A stretch of 64,000 nucleotides of DNA from a virus (taxonomy: Duplodnaviria; Caudoviricetes): IMG/VR virus record IMGVR_UViG_3300012662_000008, positions 102,529-166,528 of that record. One strand, 5' to 3'. Below, in pieces: positions 35,240 through 43,858 of this stretch; positions within the stretch are counted from its first letter, which is position 1; each line of letters begins with the position of its first letter. Made by a program: the position numbers and the translations under genes. Below the pieces are notes generated by a model. It was given only the letters and a program-made list of their open reading frames with translations, ran no database searches and was not told where the DNA came from.

Positions 35240-35796
35240 CTCCATTCATACTTGAATCTGGAAACACACATCTAATAACCCTAGATGTGTTTTCTCGGCT
35301 CCAAAAAGACAGGATAGTCTTTCTTGGCATGCCAATAGACGATGATGTTGCCAATACAATAATTGCGCAACTCCTCTATCTAGACTCACAATCACACGAA
35401 CCTATCCAGCTCTACCTCAATACTCCTGGTGGTTCTGTTTCTGCTGGTCTAGCAATCTATGATACAATGAACCTAATTAAATCTCCAGTTAATTCTATAT
35501 GCATTGGCATGGCAGCTTCAATGGGTTCAATTCTTCTCGTAAACGGTGCTACACGATCCATTCTTCCTCATTCACGGGTTCTTATTCATCAGCCATCTGG
35601 TTGGACTGAAGGAAAAGCATCAGATATGCTCATCGATATGAAAGAACTTGAAAAAATGAAGAAAGAACTCTGTCAGATTCTTGCAGATAAAACTAAACAA
35701 TCTTTTGACCAGATCTGGAATGATTTTGATAGAGATCGTTGGTTTTCCGCAGAAGAGGCAGTCTCTTACGGTCTTGTAGATAAAATTGTGAAATAA
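35236..35796 (+). CDS. clpP: ATP-dependent Clp protease proteolytic subunit
   Basis: DVFSRL..DRIVFL, YLNTPGGSV, GMAASMG (catalytic Ser), IHQP and DRDRW motifs. Confidence 0.95.
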   Translation: MTPFILESGNTHLITLDVFSRLQKDRIVFLGMPIDDDVANTIIAQLLYLDSQSHEPIQLYLNTPGGSVSAGLAIYDTMNLIKSPVNSICIGMAASMGSILLVNGATRSILPHSRVLIHQPSGWTEGKASDMLIDMKELEKMKKELCQILADKTKQSFDQIWNDFDRDRWFSAEEAVSYGLVDKIVK

Positions 35797-35949
35797 TGTA
35801 CGCAAAAATAGTTGGCATAATTATTGCTCTTCCATTTATTATCTGGGGAATTTGTGCAATCCTTGCTAACATAGGCTATGAAAAACCCGAGGAAAAATTC
35901 CCTGATGATAATAACGAAACAAAATTTTGAAATAATCGCAATTTCTTTT

Positions 35950-35957
35950 TATATTTG
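35950..35957 (+). promoter_or_regulatory. -7 promoter element for the tRNA cluster
   Basis: TATATTTG 33 nt upstream of tRNA-Gln. Confidence 0.55.
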
Positions 35958-35989
35958 TGGTTGTAAGTAATCCTTAAACTTACTGTTAT

Positions 35990-36062
35990 TGAGATATGGT
36001 GCAATGGGTTAGCACACAAGATTTTGGTTCTTGGAATTTCTGTTCGAGTCAGAATATCTCAA
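35990..36062 (+). tRNA. tRNA-Gln(TTG)
   Basis: Acceptor TGAGATA/TATCTCA; anticodon arm CAAGA-TTTTGGT-TCTTG; TTCGA T-loop. Confidence 0.9.
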
Positions 36063-36067
36063 CTTTT

Positions 36068-36152
36068 GCCAAAATGTCGTAATGGAAGCCGAGGTGGACT
36101 TAAAATTCACTGGGCCGAAAGGCCCGTGCGGGTTCGAGTCCCGCTTTTGGTA
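36068..36152 (+). tRNA. tRNA-Leu(TAA)
   Basis: GTGGA-CTTAAAA-TTCAC anticodon arm; long variable arm GGGCC-GAAA-GGCCC. Confidence 0.9.
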
Positions 36153-36194
36153 CAAAATCCAATTCGTTATATTGGATTTTTAAAATTAATTTTC

Positions 36195-36377
36195 ACAAGT
36201 ACAGACCACTATTACGAGCGAGGTACATATAGCTATTCCGGACAATGGCTATGTGTTATGAAACCAGTTATAAACCAGGGTTGTCGCTAATAACGTGTTG
36301 ACTCTCGTGAGGGAGCATATGATGGAACGCAACAGGCTCAATAAGTGAGCTAGTCCGTACCTCGTCAATTTACTTGT
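36195..36377 (+). ncRNA. Unidentified structured RNA in the tRNA cluster
   Basis: Nested closing helices ACAAGTA/TACTTGT and CGAGGTAC/GTACCTCG with internal hairpins; no credible ORF. Confidence 0.45.
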
Positions 36378-36425
36378 TTTTTGGGTTGGTGGCATTTTAT
36401 TTATGATGCTACCAACCTATTTTAT

Positions 36426-36500
36426 TGCGGGATAGACTGGAGATGGTCCCAGCTCGGTCTCATAAGCCGATCTACGTAGGTTCGAGCCCTACTCCCGCAT
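36426..36500 (+). tRNA. tRNA-Met(CAT), initiator-like
   Basis: TGCGGGA/TCCCGCA acceptor; TCGGT-CTCATAA-GCCGA anticodon arm. Confidence 0.85.
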
Positions 36501-36529
36501 CTAGTTTTGTATTACGGCGAAACTCTTTA

Positions 36530-36703
36530 AGGTTGTTTCAGCATTCTTATTTTTACTATTTTGCTATAAAATCATTAAAAAACAACCTGTATTTTTGGAA
36601 TAATTCAGCATTTTTTAGCTAAAATTCATGATTTCACACTTCCTTTTAACAGACTAGGGGAGGGTGTTTATTCCGTATTGCACATTCTCCCCTAGTCTTT
36701 TTT
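36530..36703 (+). promoter_or_regulatory. Attenuator-like leader: two stem-CAGCAUU motifs plus alternative terminator/antiterminator
   Basis: AGGTTGTTT-CAGCATT..AAACAACCT; GGAATAA-TTCAGCATT..TTATTCC; 17-bp terminator 36651-36698 plus T-run, ending 10 nt before ATG 36713. Confidence 0.6.
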
Positions 36704-36712
36704 CTTTTTATT

Positions 36713-38110
36713 ATGGATAACTTCATTTCAGCAATCAGCACCAAAAATGCTCACACAGCAAACGGTGCAATCACAAACAGTACAACACTCAACAAATGTC
36801 TAGATTTCTTTGCAATTGCAGGAAATCACCAAGATATGTTAGGCTCTTTTCTTTCCGCGTTTGGAGAAAATGAGCAATTAGCAATTCGGATCTTATTTTG
36901 GTCCCGTGATTGCCGAGGTGGTGCTGGTACAAAAAAGAATTTTCAGATTTGTCTTTCTTGGTTGCAAGAACATAGGCCTGAAATCTTTTCAAAAATCTTC
37001 AGATTAGTTCCGGAATATGGATATTGGAAAGATCTTTACAAACTTCAACCAACAGATGAACCTGTTCGTTATATAGCTAACACGCTTATTAACGAAGAAG
37101 ATCATTCACTTTGTGCAAAATATTGTCCTCGAAAGGGTTTGTGGTTTTTGAAACTGCGTCAATTCCTTGGATTTACTCCAACTGTTTTTAGGCATCATAT
37201 TGTGAATAGAACACAAGTTGTAGAACAATTAATGTGTGCTAGAAAATGGAGCAAGATTGAGTATAGTACCGTTCCTAGTGTGGCATCACGTATTTACTCT
37301 GGAACATTTGGGAGGCACGATCCTGCTCGTTATTCTGCTTATTTACAAGCAGTTAACAATGGCAAGCAAAAAATTAACGCATTGGTTCTCTTTCCAAGTG
37401 ATATATATGCAGATTATCGACATGGTACTTTAAAAGAAGATGCAGTTCGAGCACTTTGGAATAATATGCCAAACTTTATGGCTGGTTGCAAGGAGCGCAT
37501 TATGCCAATTTGTGATGTTTCTGGTAGTATGAAATGGGGAAACCCTGCACAGAAGGTACAACCAATCGATGTTTCAGTTGCTCTCGGAGTATATCTTGCA
37601 GAACACAATGAAGGCCCATTTCATAACTGTTTTATGACCTTCTCAGAAAAACCAGAAATAGTTACTCTTACCGGCAATGACATATTTGCAAAATTTGAAT
37701 ATATTAAAAACTATATACAGGGTTATAACACAGACTTGCAAGCAGTTTTTGATCTTATTCTTAGGCGAGTAATAGAATGTCATCTTTCTCAAGAAGATCT
37801 TCCTACTAAGTTATTGATACTTAGTGATATGGAGATTGATTGTGTTATGAATCAGGCAGATAAGACGAATTTTGAAGCAATCGAGGAGAAGTTTAAAAAT
37901 GCAGGCTATGAAAGGCCTGGGTTGATTTTTTGGAATATAGAAGGACGTGGCAATAATATGCCTGTTACTCTTGCTGATAAGAATTGCGCTCTTGTTTCTG
38001 GTTACTCGCCAGCAATTGTACAATCAGTTCTTGGTGGAGACGATCTTTCTCCTATGGCAGTTATGCTAAGAACAATAAATTCCGAGAGATATTCTCAGAT
38101 AATTCTGTAG
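36713..38110 (+). CDS. DUF2828-type TROVE/VWA-like protein (Ro60-related architecture)
   Basis: T-x-NGA, LFWSRDCRGGAG, EYGYWKDL, MIDAS CDVSGSM, NTDLQAVF, ILSDMEID, IFWN and LVSGYSP motifs. Confidence 0.85.
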   Translation: MDNFISAISTKNAHTANGAITNSTTLNKCLDFFAIAGNHQDMLGSFLSAFGENEQLAIRILFWSRDCRGGAGTKKNFQICLSWLQEHRPEIFSKIFRLVPEYGYWKDLYKLQPTDEPVRYIANTLINEEDHSLCAKYCPRKGLWFLKLRQFLGFTPTVFRHHIVNRTQVVEQLMCARKWSKIEYSTVPSVASRIYSGTFGRHDPARYSAYLQAVNNGKQKINALVLFPSDIYADYRHGTLKEDAVRALWNNMPNFMAGCKERIMPICDVSGSMKWGNPAQKVQPIDVSVALGVYLAEHNEGPFHNCFMTFSEKPEIVTLTGNDIFAKFEYIKNYIQGYNTDLQAVFDLILRRVIECHLSQEDLPTKLLILSDMEIDCVMNQADKTNFEAIEEKFKNAGYERPGLIFWNIEGRGNNMPVTLADKNCALVSGYSPAIVQSVLGGDDLSPMAVMLRTINSERYSQIIL

Positions 38111-38143
38111 AATTCACCCTCCCGGACATCTCTTTTATATAAA

Positions 38144-38260
38144 GTCCCACATAGCTCAGTAGTAGAGCACGTTATAAAATAGCCAGTTTTGGTTATTTCC
38201 GCATTATCTTTTAGACTGATAATCTCGGGGTCGTTGGTGCAATTCCAACTGTGGGACCCA
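38144..38260 (+). tRNA. tRNA-like RNA with GAT (Ile) anticodon and a 41-nt insertion (38172-38212) in the anticodon stem
   Basis: Acceptor TCCCACA/TGTGGGA plus C-CCA; removing the insert yields a perfect CGAGA-CTGATAA-TCTCG arm. Confidence 0.75.
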
Positions 38261-38290
38261 CTTTCATAATATTGTTTTAATTGTTTGTTT

Positions 38291-38328
38291 GGGTGGTGAA
38301 ATTCCGATTTCATCACCCTTTTTATTTT
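38291..38328 (+). terminator. Rho-independent terminator
   Basis: GGGTGGTGAAAT-TCCG-ATTTCATCACCC plus T-run. Confidence 0.75.
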
Positions 38329-38335
38329 TAAAATT

Positions 38336-41300
38336 ATGAATTACGATAATATCTCACAGGCATATAAGTTAGTACTTGCTATGTCTGATTCTGATGAAAA
38401 AGAAAACCTTCTCGATGTTCTTAATTATGCTGACGATTGTTATGTTGATCACTGTGAAGAACTTGGTCATATCGCAATTGAAGAGATAAAAGAATTTGAA
38501 AAAGACACAAAAGATGAATGTGTAGAAATTCTTGAAGATCTCCTTGATTCTTGTACTATTTTTGAACCAAAATCTATTTTAGAACAATTTAAAATAAAAG
38601 TTTATGGCAGCGATAGATAAGTGCTATGTAGATAGCTATGCTGATTACAAGACTTTTTGTGATTGGGCAAAAGATAGATCTTTTATAACTCCTAGAGGAG
38701 CAAAAGTAGTTATCTCTGATTATATCTTTAATTGGAAAGAAGAGGATTTTAAGGATGGTTGTGTACCAATTTTTAATTCTCCCGTGATATTCGACAATTA
38801 TCTTTATCACAATTGCAACCTATCTTTTATTAGAGAATGGCTTGCTAGCCGTTATACAAACAATCTTACAGGCGATCTTTATGACGAGATAACACAAGTA
38901 CCCACTCTTCCAGAGTTCGTGCCTTGTAGGCATGTTTCTGTGCTAAAAAATGGCATAGGAAATATGCCATATAAAAGTTATAACGACTACTCTCGAAGAA
39001 AATACGGATATTGGATCGTCGATATTTATCTAGGTAATAGTACTTGTTGGTATAACGAAGAATATGATTTTTGGACAATTCCGTTTGAGAACGACATTCA
39101 CACTGCTTCTTATGCGGCATTTAAAAATAAGTCCATAAAATCGATTATTAGACGAATTATTAAAAAATGGAAATTACCAGTTGGTTGTAAGATTGAAATA
39201 GAAGATCGAACAACAAAATGGGTTTTAATAACAAAATAATGAAAAAGTTTGATTTTAGTAGATTATTCGGATGGTTGAGTATGTTTTACTCGATTGTTGT
39301 AACAATTTGTGTGTTTTCATCATGGATGCCTGTTTGGGCCACGATTGCAATGTCGGGAACAGGCATTGTTCTTTTAATGCTTGATATTTATATTTATTTA
39401 TTTAAAAAAGAAAAATAATGAAACCATTTTCACTTGAAGAATATCTGAAAAATCCAGATAGGAAAATAGTAGATGATTTTGATAGATCAGTGCGTATAAT
39501 TGCAACTGACAGAAATAACAAGGATGGCAAACCAATTGTTGCGCTTGTTACATCTGACGGAAACGAAATAACTACATTATATACTAAGAATGGAAAATCT
39601 AGTAATAGTGATCAACAACGATTGTTTTTTGCTCCAGAAAAGCATGGTGTATGGATAGTTATATACAGATATCCTTGTGGCGCAATTGGAACAGCTGATT
39701 TTATAACATATCCGGAAGTGGAGCAATTCAAAAATAACCAGCCAAACATAAAAATATTAAAAGAAGAATATCTTGAATGGGAGGAATAGTTATGAATAAT
39801 CAGGAAATAAGAAATGAAATCAAGAATCTGAAAAGGATTTCAGACCTTGAAAAGCAACCGTTCTTACGCCCATTGGACCCGCTTATGCAAATCTAAAAAG
39901 TAAAATTATGGCATGGATAGCAAGAGATAGTGATGAAACTCTCGGAATATTTGGGGAAAAACCAACAAGGGACAATTTTGGCAGATGGAGAACTGACGCT
40001 TACATCGCCTTTAATGTGTATGACGATGATTTCGGAATAGCACTCCCTTCAGATGCCGATGAAAAACTCATCGGAAAGCATATCACTTGGGATGATGAAT
40101 CTGTAGAAATATAGAGCTATGATGACACAGTTAGAACAATCTTTCTATGAATCTGTAACAAAGTATTGTCGGGAGCACTCGACTGATTGTAATTACAACA
40201 AGCAGATTGATTGGGAGCAGCGCAGGTATGAAATTGCAAGGGACACCTTGGCTGCCCTTATTTCCAATCCGAACCACTGTGGAAAATCTTATGAAAGCGA
40301 GGCGAAACACGCAGTTGAATTTGCTGATGCCCTTATTGATGAATTAAAGAAATAGAGTTATGAAAGCAAGCGAGTTAATGTTGGGTGATTGGGTAGAATT
40401 TGAAACGCCAACAACGGAATTTCTTTATGGCAAGGTTATAGGAATTTCTGAACACTATGTAACAATCGGTACATTAAACGACAATGTCTGTGTAGAAATA
40501 GATAAAGTCGGGCAGATACCAATCACTTCAAACATTCTTAAAAAGAATGAATTTGAAAAGTACTTTGCGGGATATTATAAGAACCCTAAAGAGCTGCATA
40601 TTTCATGTGATGAGAATCAGGAGCATTGGTATATTAGCGACAGCCACGAGCAATATATTCACGGTGATTCTGTGGCTTCATTTTCCGCAGTTCATGAATT
40701 GCAGAATATTTTGAGGATTCTTGGATTTAACGATTTAGCAGACAATTTTAAGATATGAAAACAAAGGAACAGATTTTAGGATGGCTCGACAAGCAGCCGT
40801 GGAAAAATGAGTTTTACGAGAATAGCTTCAAACAAGGATTGAAGCACACCTCGTATGACGGAGATTTTATAATCACCGCATTTGACTATGAATTGACCGC
40901 ACAGGGAAACGAGGTTTGGGGCAGGCGTTCTGCTGAATATGCGAATTGGTACAACTCCAACGACAGACCGATGTCTTGGGAGGAATATCTTAAAAAGAGC
41001 CGTCCGATTCAAGACGCAAGCATCAAAATAAATGCATATATCGGCAATAACTCAGAATTTCTACAATGCGGAATGTCAAAAGAACTCTGTGAGGCTTTCA
41101 TTGCCTACATGAAGCTGATTCAGCTGCGGAATGCTTGGGTAAAAGACTGTAAAAGAATGCCTCTGCGCTTTAAAATCATGTCACAGGGCGGCAAGGTAAT
41201 GGTGAGTGATATGATACTTAATTCGTGCGGGTTGTCTTTTGAATACATGACCACGGCTGAGGAGTTTATCAATGTCTTCAAGGACCTCTTGGAAACCGCC

Positions 41301-42517: not shown

Positions 42518-42615
42518 GATTCCGTAGCTCAACGGTAGAGCAGCATGGCCTAAGTCAGGGCAGCCCCTGATGATGAAGTCTCAGCAAGTAGTTGGTTCGA
42601 CTCCAACCGGAATTA
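42518..42615 (+). ncRNA. tRNA-like RNA with a 26-nt insertion (42545-42570) in the anticodon stem and a non-canonical loop
   Basis: GATTCCG/CGGAATT acceptor; canonical D and T arms; insert removal gives GCTGA-TGAAGTC-TCAGC. Confidence 0.7.
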
Positions 42616-43784: not shown

Positions 43785-43858
43785 GTGTCTGTGGCGCAGT
43801 TGGTTAGCGCATGATACTTTTAATATCAGGGTCATGAGTTCAAGTCTCATCAGACACA
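43785..43858 (+). tRNA. tRNA-Lys(TTT)
   Basis: GTGTCTG/CAGACAC acceptor; TGATA-CTTTTAA-TATCA anticodon arm. Confidence 0.92.

What the first reader, a model, noticed from the sequence alone, without database searches (positions are those of the whole stretch)
36530..38260. Candidate new RNA-protein system: TROVE/VWA-like gene controlled by, and flanked by, a repeated stem-CAGCAUU RNA motif
Seen: the leader has two copies of a helix whose 5' strand is followed by CAGCATT (36530-36545 pairing with 36580-36588; 36597-36612 pairing with 36668-36674). The second copy encloses ACACTTCCTTT (36636-36646), which can pair with the 5' arm of a 17-bp terminator (36651-36698) ending 10 nt before the ATG, so the two folds are mutually exclusive. 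A third copy (GGTTATTT-CCGCATT, 38191-38205, paired with upstream AAATAGCC) lies inside the insertion of the tRNA directly downstream of the gene. Known: Ro60/TROVE-VWA proteins bind structured Y RNAs, and some bacterial Y RNAs mimic tRNA. Inference: the protein binds this motif, autoregulates through attenuation, and is tethered to tRNA-shaped RNAs, possibly as an RNA repair or counter-defence module.
Basis: partly seen in the sequence, partly recalled or inferred. Interest (0 to 1): 0.9.

Follow-up and report, generated by a model that had tools for sequence, protein, structure and literature searches.

The report
Phage Ro60-like protein with partner RNAs
A large gut-type phage encodes a ring-shaped protein that folds like the RNA-surveillance protein Ro60, flanked by three small RNAs that share one conserved "handle"; one of them is a complete tRNA look-alike. 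The same protein-RNA pairing recurs in dozens of unrelated phages and I found no published description of it.

Summary
The leader holds two units of helix + CAGCAUU (36530-36588, 36597-36674). A third copy lies inside the tRNA-shaped RNA at 38145-38260.

The motif is not chance. A covariance model built from 31 units found 45 matches in the first loci and 35 more in 30 loci it had never seen. All 80 lie on the gene's strand and within about 1 kb of a DUF2828 gene. All 8 helix pairs covary.

The protein (DUF2828 + DUF7788) is predicted to fold like full-length Ro60 (TROVE ring plus vWA domain with a complete MIDAS motif).

Best reading: a Ro60/Y-RNA-like particle whose RNAs share a "handle" (helix, CAGCA, GU tail).
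- In the tRNA look-alike the handle is circularly permuted and capped. It is inserted between anticodon-stem positions 28 and 29 of an otherwise canonical tRNA-Ile(GAU) shape.
- The "terminator" is the crossing helix of a pseudoknotted last unit. That helix is conserved next to the start codon in about 33 loci, but its U-run exists only in this phage's clade.

Attenuation is therefore not the family's mechanism. Autoregulation by mimicry remains possible. Protein binding is inferred, not shown.

No Rfam family reaches threshold. Related units give sub-threshold matches to Dictyostelium Class I RNA.

This scan has reported the same pairing before on other DNA.

The parts
36382..36419 (+). Strong hairpin followed by a U-run, 6 nt before tRNA-Met. 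It is terminator-like or a processing or stability hairpin that bounds the RNA module on its 5' side.
   Evidence: Terminator-like site with 15 pairs; sequence read.
36426..36501 (+). tRNA-Met(CAU), the last ordinary tRNA of the Gln-Leu-Met cluster, 29 nt before unit 1 on the same strand.
   Evidence: ARAGORN. Rfam tRNA scores it 27.1 bits, just under the gathering score of 29.
36530..36593 (+). Handle RNA unit 1. It has a 9-bp helix (36530-36538 with 36580-36588), CAGCA at 36539-43, a 36-nt A/U-rich loop and a GUAUU tail.
   Evidence: Covariance model R1 scores it 37.9 bits, the only strong match in the 166.5-kb genome. The helix forms in the minimum-free-energy fold.
36597..36679 (+). Handle RNA unit 2, the 'last unit'. 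It has a 7-bp helix (36597-36603 with 36668-36674), UU, CAGCA at 36606-10 and a GUAUU tail at 36675-79. Its 3' strand lies in the loop of the long hairpin.
   Evidence: The handle is 100% paired in four lineages, with 3 compensatory pairs.
36650..36712 (+). Long hairpin (5' arm 36651-36667, 3' arm 36681-36698) that crosses the handle of unit 2 in pseudoknot topology. A U-run (36699-36712) follows it and abuts the start codon.
   Evidence: Fold energy -29.5 kcal/mol. Duplex energy -30.1 against -12.8 +/- 2.3 for shuffles. The crossing helix is conserved in about 33 loci; the U-run is found only in the window's clade.
36713..38110 (+). Gene for a 465-aa Ro60-like protein: DUF2828 N-terminal helical ring plus DUF7788 vWA domain with MIDAS residues D268-x-S270-x-S272, T340 and D372.
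   Evidence: Pfam PF11443 2.1e-31 and PF25043 2.2e-49. PHROG 850 'RNA-binding protein' 1.7e-126. AlphaFold2 model with pLDDT 82. The top 13 PDB matches are all Ro60/TROVE over the full length. Invariant columns.
38145..38260 (+). tRNA-shaped RNA with acceptor, D and T arms, a discriminator base and an encoded CCA. Its anticodon stem is split between positions 28 and 29 by a 41-nt insertion (38172-38212). The insertion holds a capped, circularly permuted handle: AAATAGCCA 38177-85, loop GTTT, TGGTTATTT 38190-98, CCGCA 38199-203. With the insertion looped out it has a 5-bp stem and a 7-nt loop, CUGAUAA (anticodon GAU).
   Evidence: Rfam tRNA 38.7 bits. Fold z-score -3.6. The arms covary among 6 relatives. 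The capped handle is present in 9 of 9 long tRNA look-alikes.
38291..38318 (+). Strong hairpin followed by a U-run, 17 nt before the next ORF's ATG (38336). It is terminator-like and bounds the module on its 3' side.
   Evidence: Terminator-like site with 12 pairs.

Best explanation
The locus is a phage version of a Ro60/Y-RNA particle.

The 465-aa DUF2828/DUF7788 protein is a Ro60-shaped ring (helical-repeat ring plus vWA/MIDAS domain). It lies beside three RNAs, transcribed on the same strand as the adjoining tRNA cluster. All three share one 'handle': a 7-9-bp helix whose 5' strand is followed by 0-3 nt and CAGCA, and whose 3' strand is followed by GU(A/U).

The handle is the inferred docking site for the protein. 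What lies inside the handle is variable cargo.
- Unit 1 is a plain stem-closed RNA of about 60 nt.
- Unit 2 carries a long helix that crosses its own handle as a pseudoknot and ends at the start codon.
- The third RNA is a full tRNA-Ile(GAU)-shaped molecule. Its handle is circularly permuted: its open ends are capped by a loop, and it is inserted between anticodon-stem positions 28 and 29. The RNA therefore keeps true tRNA ends and can be processed like a tRNA.

By analogy with Y RNAs, these RNAs would gate the ring or tether it to tRNA-handling or RNA-decay enzymes.

Shown here: the fold likeness, the RNA structures and their covariation, and the gene-RNA linkage.

Inferred: that the protein binds the handle, that the units are released as separate RNAs, and the downstream role.

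Sub-claim (about 35-40%): the last unit, always placed just before the start codon, is an mRNA-borne mimic of the partner RNAs that lets the protein control its own synthesis. In this phage's clade alone this might act through the hairpin plus U-run (about 15-20%).
For: Protein:
- Pfam DUF2828 + DUF7788.
- AlphaFold2 model with pLDDT 82 and pTM 0.81.
- The top 13 Foldseek PDB matches are all Ro60/TROVE chains aligned over about 500-545 columns: E 7.5e-10 to 1.3e-4, TM-score normalised to the query 0.35-0.65, including Thermus phage phiLo Ro60 (9kop, 9l5y).
- The MIDAS residues DxSxS, T and D are invariant in 17 homologues.

RNA handle:
- Model R1 found 45 matches at E<=0.05 in 302 kb.
- It found 35 more in 30 independent loci not used to build it, hitting 23 of the 30.
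- All 80 matches are on the gene's strand. Those in the independent loci lie within about 700 nt upstream or directly downstream of the gene.
- 8 of 8 pairs show compensatory changes. 93.7% of cells are paired against 34-46% when the partner is slid. Covariation score is 0.80 against 0.08-0.15.
- G-U pairs fit only the gene's strand.

tRNA look-alike:
- The acceptor and T arms covary; the D stem is almost invariant.
- 9 of 9 long tRNA look-alikes next to DUF2828 genes have a 5-9-bp hairpin ending 0-3 nt before C(A/C)GCA.
- In 6 of 9 the cap loop starts GU or UGU, which is the tail of the open handle. One example is L040b: GTATTCT-gtaa-AGAATAC-aga-CAGCA.

Last unit: a crossing helix is present in about 33 loci, with duplex energy -26 to -50 kcal/mol and z -3.2 to -10.5.

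[quoted passage not shown] Bacterial YrlA Y RNAs mimic tRNA and are encoded next to Ro60 (PMC4201824).
Against: - There is no direct evidence that the protein binds these RNAs or that the units exist as separate RNAs.
- The protein does not match the Pfam TROVE model by sequence. A profile search of PDB sequences finds only weak vWA matches. The Ro60 likeness rests on a predicted structure.
- The RNAs do not match Rfam YrlA (no match listed at E<=10), and their handle differs from the bulged Ro60-binding helix of Y RNAs.
- Unit 2 abuts the coding region, so at least that unit may be purely part of the mRNA.
- In the window's clade the anticodon stem-loop of the tRNA look-alike is canonical. 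It could therefore be a working or spliced tRNA rather than a scaffold.
- My loci contain no open-handle unit with a sealed tRNA cargo, so the permutation argument rests on the handle alone.
Confidence: 0.6

Rival explanations
1. One reading: the two leader copies are only a cis-acting attenuator. The protein binds the motif in its own leader and switches between an anti-terminator fold and the 17-bp terminator, so controlling read-through into its gene.
For: - In the window the hairpin 36651-36698 (-29.5 kcal/mol) is followed by 9 T in the next 10 bases and ends 14 nt before the ATG.
- The nascent RNA up to 36680 folds as handle plus an inner hairpin that uses the terminator's 5' arm (-17.7 kcal/mol).
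- The related lineages L015, L029 and L087 show the same hairpin plus U-run. L015 and L029 also have a pyrimidine tract upstream.
Against: - The anti-terminator pairing is weak and no better than composition predicts: -12.0 kcal/mol, matched or beaten by 74 of 300 shuffles. In L001 and L009 it is absent at -4 kcal/mol.
- Outside the window's clade the crossing helix is kept but the U-run is not: 0-5 T in the next 10 bases in about 28 loci.
- Units occur in arrays of up to 4, as far as about 670 nt upstream, and also downstream of the gene.
- Handle and hairpin are interleaved and could co-exist as a pseudoknot.
Confidence: 0.12
2. The units are punctuation for the tRNA operon: processing, stability or folding elements recognised by host RNases or by a phage factor other than the DUF2828 protein. 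On this view the link to DUF2828 reflects shared residence in tRNA clusters.
For: - The units lie inside or at the end of tRNA arrays in many loci.
- Small self-cleaving ribozymes lie nearby in two loci: Pistol above threshold in L107, and a twister-P1-like match in L008.
- Strong hairpins bracket the module.
Against: - Many loci with units have no tRNA called nearby (L008-L013), yet all have the DUF2828 gene.
- In the window's own 166.5-kb genome the only strong match lies at this gene, not at the other tRNAs at 43785 and 52417.
- The unit next to the start codon keeps its position across clades.
Confidence: 0.08
3. The RNA at 38145-38260 is a real tRNA-Ile(GAU) gene interrupted by a 41-nt intron-like insertion. 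The insertion is removed, or tolerated, to give a decoding tRNA. On this view the CAGCA hairpin is a splicing or processing signal rather than a protein handle.
For: - With 38172-38212 looped out, the anticodon arm is a perfect 5-bp stem with the canonical loop CUGAUAA, and CCA is encoded.
- Relatives keep canonical 7-nt loops with changed anticodons: GGU in L023, UGU in L029 and L015.
Against: - No bacterial or phage splicing system is known for an insertion at 28/29 (own knowledge).
- In other clades (L040b, L046a, L046b, L111) the segment after CAGCA does not form a canonical anticodon arm, yet the capped handle is kept.
- The same handle occurs in RNAs that are not tRNAs.
Confidence: 0.1
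4. The repeats are a short mobile or recombination-prone DNA repeat with no RNA function.
For: Several copies lie in tandem in intergenic DNA.
Against: - The helix sequence differs in nearly every lineage while pairing is kept, with G-U pairs allowed only on one strand.
- All 80 model matches are on the gene's strand.
- There are no other copies elsewhere in the genome.
Confidence: 0.02

Closest known systems
Ro60 (Rsr) with Y RNAs, in particular Thermus phage phiLo Ro60 with Yrl1/Yrl2 (PMC12135203) and bacterial or phage YrlA (PMC4201824; Rfam RF02553)
   Same: - A ring protein with a helical-repeat ring plus vWA/MIDAS domain, by predicted fold.
- Small RNAs encoded directly beside the gene on the same strand; in phiLo there are two upstream, as here.
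- One partner RNA combines a protein-binding module with a tRNA-like module.
   Different: - The protein belongs to Pfam DUF2828/DUF7788 and does not match the TROVE model by sequence.
- The RNAs do not match YrlA.
- The conserved module is helix + CAGCA + GU tail, not the bulged Y-RNA helix or the CGAA motif.
- Here the tRNA module keeps open acceptor ends and an anticodon loop while the handle is capped. In YrlA the topology is the reverse.
- Binding is not shown.
Dictyostelium Class I RNAs (Rfam RF01414; PMC7919456)
   Same: - A short stem joins the 5' and 3' ends.
- A conserved motif lies directly after the 5' strand (consensus CUUACAGCAAU).
- The interior is variable and A-rich, and the length is about 60 nt.
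- Unit 1 of L005 carries CUUACAGCAAU letter for letter.
   Different: - All 10 phage units matched score below the gathering score: 24.5-30.7 against 41.5 bits.
- The window's own units give no match at E<=10; they share only the CAGCA core.
- Class I RNAs are reported as unique to dictyostelids and bound by the RRM protein Rnp1A, with no link to a Ro60-like protein in that paper.
- Whether they are homologous was not tested.
Autogenous control by mRNA mimicry. Examples are the phage T4 gene 32 leader pseudoknot and ribosomal-protein leaders (own knowledge, not tested here)
   Same: A structured, pseudoknotted copy of the protein's presumed RNA target lies immediately before its own start codon, in about 33 loci.
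   Different: - No binding or regulation data exist.
- The element may simply be another partner RNA cut from the 5' UTR.
Intrinsic terminator or attenuator leaders
   Same: In the window, a GC-rich 17-bp hairpin followed by a U-run lies just upstream of the gene.
   Different: - The U-run is not conserved outside the window's clade.
- No conserved mutually exclusive alternative fold was found.

Membership tests
Pfam DUF2828 (PF11443) + DUF7788 (PF25043) | HMM match above the curated gathering score | tested here: met
   109.7 bits against a cut-off of 29, and 168.1 bits against 27.1. PHROG 850 at 1.7e-126.
Ro60 / TROVE (PF05731) | Sequence match to the TROVE model | tested here: not met
   No PF05731 match at E<=0.1. 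A profile search of PDB sequences gives only weak vWA matches.
Ro60 / TROVE (PF05731) | Helical-repeat ring followed by a vWA domain (fold) | tested here: met
   On a predicted model only. The 13 best PDB matches are all Ro60/TROVE over the full length, with E down to 7.5e-10 and TM-score up to 0.65.
Ro60 / TROVE (PF05731) | MIDAS motif DxSxS...T...D in the vWA domain | tested here: met
   D268, S270, S272, T340 and D372 are invariant in 17 homologues. Also read directly in the sequence.
Ro60 / TROVE (PF05731) | Binds Y RNA on the outer surface and single-stranded RNA ends in the central hole | not testable with these tools
   Needs gel-shift assays, RNA immunoprecipitation or a solved structure.
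YrlA-type Y RNA (Rfam RF02553) | Covariance-model match | tested here: not met
   No YrlA match in window 35500-39000 at E<=10, nor in related loci.
YrlA-type Y RNA (Rfam RF02553) | A tRNA-like domain joined to the protein-binding stem, encoded next to the ring-protein gene | tested here: inconclusive
   The tRNA-like body and the adjacent position are met. The topology is the reverse of YrlA: the acceptor is open and the handle capped. The handle's binding role is unproven.
Dictyostelium Class I RNA (Rfam RF01414) | Covariance-model match at the gathering score (41.5 bits) | tested here: not met
   No match in the window at E<=10. Ten related units score 24.5-30.7 bits.
Dictyostelium Class I RNA (Rfam RF01414) | A short stem joining the ends, plus a conserved motif directly after the 5' strand | tested here: met
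   The architecture is met in units 1 and 2. The motif is shared fully in L005 (CUUACAGCAAU). In the window only the CAGCA core is shared.
tRNA (Rfam RF00005) | Cloverleaf model match; acceptor, D and T arms | tested here: met
   38.7 bits against 29 for 38145-38257. The arms are supported in 6 relatives. ARAGORN does not call it.
tRNA (Rfam RF00005) | Uninterrupted 5-bp anticodon stem with a 7-nt loop | tested here: not met
   The stem is split between positions 28 and 29 by 41 nt (38172-38212). The lower stem and the loop CUGAUAA are canonical only if the insertion is looped out.
Intrinsic terminator / transcription attenuator | Stable hairpin followed by a U-run | tested here: met
   In the window only: -29.5 kcal/mol and 9 T in the next 10 bases.
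Intrinsic terminator / transcription attenuator | A conserved terminator and a conserved mutually exclusive anti-terminator across homologous leaders | tested here: not met
   The U-run is limited to the window, L015, L029 and L087. The anti-terminator pairing is not above shuffles in the window and is absent in L001 and L009.

The most novel reading that the evidence does not exclude
The stem + CAGCA 'handle' RNAs are the cognate partner RNAs of a second, so far unrecognised branch of Ro60-like ring proteins (DUF2828/DUF7788). This branch would be widespread in phages and giant viruses, and the long-unexplained Class I RNAs of dictyostelid amoebae would be members of the same RNA class.

In phages the ring would be loaded, through a permuted handle, onto complete tRNA-shaped RNAs with intact anticodon loops. 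These could act as decoys, sensors or repair substrates against tRNA-cleaving host defences.

A handle copy fused to the mRNA leader would give autogenous control.
Probability: 0.2. Interest if true: 0.9.

Novelty: new variant of a known kind. Interest (0 to 1): 0.7.

Why it matters
Ro60/Y-RNA particles are a classic but still poorly understood RNA-surveillance system, known from animals, some bacteria and a few phages. This locus points to a parallel system with three features:
- a different protein family (at least 2535 relatives at E<=1e-5 in metagenome protein sets, almost all unnamed);
- a different, very simple RNA docking module;
- interchangeable cargo, including a full tRNA shape.

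It gives concrete constructs for testing how a Ro60-like ring recognises RNA: a 60-nt unit, a pseudoknotted leader and a 115-nt tRNA look-alike. It also allows tests of what phages use such particles for, and of whether the Dictyostelium Class I RNAs have a related protein partner.

Tried and rejected
- RNA evidence: the look-up of sequencing runs listed no RNA holder for 36300-38400; four runs of one study hold it, as contigs only. Read laying was therefore not run and RNA ends remain unknown.
Closer relatives P0102, P0111, P0115 and P0117 could not be fetched that way. The search for related loci with P0115 gave 29 further loci instead. The same search with P0101 gave only one distant locus.
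- Phage GenBank collection: blastn matched only the tRNAs, so no close relative of this locus was found.
- Rfam: nothing reaches threshold on the units. YrlA does not match.
- The 23.8-bit R1 match at G000:C1:70743-70782 has a poor helix. I judged it chance from the sequence context, without checking ORFs.
- The sigma-70 promoter scan was uninformative: 50 sites against 55.5 expected.
- I searched my loci for open-handle units whose cargo holds a T-arm (sealed tRNA mimic). None was found.
- A four-sequence alignment of the last unit gave only modest covariation for the long helix. The purine/pyrimidine arms also score well when slid by 2. I rely on the per-locus duplex energies instead.
- The ESM Atlas showed only viral DUF2828 clusters and gave no information on amoebae.
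- Literature: 'DUF2828' returned 5 unrelated papers. No paper held TROVE + vWA + phage + noncoding RNA terms together.
- Neighbouring genes (ClpP-like protease and small unknown ORFs) gave no RNA-repair context.
Full report
**What is in the sequence**

The window comes from a 166.5-kb IMG/VR virus record estimated 95% complete. Earlier notes of this scan describe it as a crAss-like gut phage that reads TGA as Trp. I did not test that, and the gene studied here is open under table 11.

On the + strand the order is as follows:
- a ClpP-like protease gene;
- tRNA-Gln, tRNA-Leu;
- a strong hairpin plus U-run (36382-36419);
- tRNA-Met (36426-36501);
- two short repeated units (36530-36593 and 36597-36679);
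- a 17-bp hairpin (36651-36698) with a U-run that reaches the ATG at 36713;
- a 465-codon gene (36713-38110);
- a 116-nt tRNA-shaped RNA (38145-38260);
- another hairpin plus U-run (38291-38318).

The only slip is that 14 bases, not 10, separate the hairpin from the ATG.

**The protein**

Pfam gives DUF2828 (2.1e-31) and DUF7788 (2.2e-49) and no TROVE match. PHROGs gives family 850, 'RNA-binding protein'.

An AlphaFold2 model built on 17 homologues has pLDDT 82 and pTM 0.81. Its 13 best Foldseek matches in the PDB are all Ro60/TROVE chains, aligned over about 500-545 columns. E-values run from 7.5e-10 to 1.3e-4 and query-normalised TM-scores from 0.35 to 0.65. They include the Ro60 of Thermus phage phiLo. 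Isolated vWA domains follow.

The MIDAS residues (D268, S270, S272, T340, D372) are invariant in the 17 homologues.

So the protein is Ro60-like by predicted fold, not by sequence-family membership. The family is large: at least 2535 clusters at E<=1e-5, almost all unnamed.

**The repeated motif is a conserved RNA 'handle'**

Related genes at 40-55% identity, and some at about 25%, were collected from viral and metagenome contigs.

A descriptor scan showed the same unit beside most of them. The unit is a 7-9-bp helix (5' strand usually RGR..., 3' strand ...YCY), then 0-3 nt, CAGCA, 25-45 variable A-rich nt, the 3' strand, then GU(A/U). Units form arrays of 2-4 upstream of the gene, and sometimes lie downstream.

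A covariance model of 31 units (R1) gave these results:
- 45 matches at E<=0.05 in 302 kb.
- One strong match in the window's whole genome, at unit 1 (37.9 bits).
- 35 matches in 30 further loci that played no part in building it, hitting 23 of the 30.
- All 80 matches lie on the gene's strand. Those in the independent loci are within about 700 nt upstream or directly downstream of the gene.

On the model alignment all 8 pairs show compensatory changes. 93.7% of cells are paired, against 34-46% when the partner is slid. The covariation score is 0.80 against 0.08-0.15.

The alignment was fitted to the model, which favours the structure. But the helix differs in sequence in almost every lineage, and G-U pairs fit only this strand. 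This is therefore an RNA structure linked to the gene, not a chance repeat.

**The 'terminator' is the crossing helix of a pseudoknotted last unit**

In the window the 3' strand of unit 2's handle, with its GUAUU tail, lies in the loop of the 17-bp hairpin. The hairpin's 5' arm lies inside the unit. The two helices are interleaved.

The same arrangement holds for the unit nearest the start codon in about 33 loci from several clades. Duplex energies between 'inside the unit' and 'after the handle' are -26 to -50 kcal/mol, with z from -3.2 to -10.5 against shuffles.

A U-run follows this helix only in the window, L015, L029 and L087 (8-9 T in the next 10 bases where the tail could be counted). 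Elsewhere the tail holds 0-5 T and is often A-rich.

It has no counterpart in the L001 and L009 clades. In the window the RNA up to 36680 does fold as handle plus inner hairpin (-17.7 kcal/mol), so a switch is conceivable in this clade. It is not the conserved feature.

The constant position of this unit just before the start codon fits autogenous control by a mimic of the partner RNAs. That is inference only.

**The tRNA-shaped RNA carries a permuted handle**

Rfam's tRNA model scores 38145-38257 at 38.7 bits, with 56 nt in place of the anticodon arm.

Comparable RNAs of 110-121 nt lie beside the gene in L022, L023, L029, L015, L040 (two), L044/L046 (two) and L111. In six of them aligned, the acceptor and T arms covary.

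In 9 of 9, a 5-9-bp hairpin ends 0-3 nt before C(A/C)GCA. In 6 of 9 its capping loop begins GU or UGU.

This is the open handle read in a circle: 3' strand, GU tail, then 5' strand, then CAGCA. L040b shows it plainly: GTATTCT-gtaa-AGAATAC-aga-CAGCA uses the same helix words as the open last-unit handles of other phages. The window's capped handle (TGGTTATTT|CCGCATT) also resembles its own unit 1 (AGGTTGTTT|CAGCATT).

A first-reader note on this window (e1-5749852) pointed out that removing 38172-38212 leaves a perfect anticodon arm. I checked this. CG | insertion | AGA-CUGAUAA-UCU-CG gives anticodon GAU, and CCA is encoded. L023, L029 and L015 keep canonical 7-nt loops with anticodons GGU, UGU and UGU. 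Other clades do not keep a canonical arm.

So in this clade the RNA is a complete tRNA shape with the handle inserted between positions 28 and 29. Whether it decodes, is trimmed, or only imitates a tRNA is open.

**Comparison with known systems**

The nearest known system is Ro60 with Y RNAs:
- Bacterial and phage YrlA RNAs join a Ro60-binding stem to a tRNA-like domain and are encoded next to Ro60 (PMC4201824).
- Thermus phage phiLo Ro60 binds two Y-like RNAs encoded just upstream of its gene (PMC12135203).

Here the protein family, the RNA module and the topology of the tRNA mimic all differ, and YrlA does not match.

The handle closely resembles the Dictyostelium Class I RNAs: a short terminal stem with an 11-nt motif after the 5' strand (PMC7919456).
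- Ten related units give full-length but sub-threshold RF01414 matches, at 24.5-30.7 bits against a gathering score of 41.5.
- One unit (L005) carries CUUACAGCAAU exactly.
- The window's own units share only CAGCA and give no match.

I do not file them as Class I RNAs.

**Earlier notes of this scan**

The same pairing of DUF2828 with handle RNAs, and the Class I likeness, has been reported several times on other genomes. One later check kept the observation but gave the bold reading low odds. I re-tested the core claims here on independent data.

**Verdict**

The most likely mechanism is a Ro60/Y-RNA-like particle with handle-bearing partner RNAs (0.6). Binding, RNA processing and biological role remain to be shown.

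No paper or Rfam family that I could find describes this RNA family.

Noticed in passing
window 42518-42615: A second tRNA-shaped RNA (Rfam tRNA 43.3 bits) with an insertion after the D arm. It contains TCTCAGCAAG near its 3' part, but I saw no hairpin directly before the CAGCA, so it does not carry a clear capped handle.
   Followed up: partly
window 36382-36419, 36651-36698, 38291-38318: Three strong hairpins, each followed by a U-run and each ending 6-17 nt before the next gene or RNA. Together they bracket the two halves of the module. They may be terminators, or processing or stability hairpins. L015 and L087 show the same hairpin-U-run-ATG pattern at the next gene.
   Followed up: partly
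window 36426-36501: ARAGORN calls tRNA-Met(CAU), but the Rfam tRNA score is just below the gathering score (27.1 against 29), with two unpaired acceptor positions.
   Followed up: no
L046 4004-4568: A tmRNA-like match (55.4 bits, above threshold) overlaps a group I intron match (86.1 bits), just downstream of a DUF2828 gene and a handle unit in a 220-kb contig.
   Followed up: no
L001 841-902, L007 1419-1480, L040 415-476: The Rfam 'freshwater-1' RNA (RF02979) matches above threshold, embedded in the tRNA arrays that precede the DUF2828 gene in freshwater phages.
   Followed up: no
L107 616-684; L008 3715-3779: Small self-cleaving ribozyme matches lie near DUF2828 loci. Pistol scores 42.8 bits (above threshold) about 820 nt upstream of the gene. 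A twister-P1-like match scores 57 bits (below its threshold of 67.2) about 1 kb downstream.
   Followed up: no
L092, L094, L096-L100, L102, L105, L110, L115 (between the last unit and the ATG): A conserved box, AGTAACCAATTAAA, lies between the crossing helix and the start codon in many freshwater lineages. It is absent from the window's clade, where a U-run takes its place.
   Followed up: no
L001-L007, L016 (24 nt after the stop codon): In the freshwater clade an ordinary tRNA-Met follows the DUF2828 gene at the position where the window has the handle-bearing tRNA look-alike.
   Followed up: no
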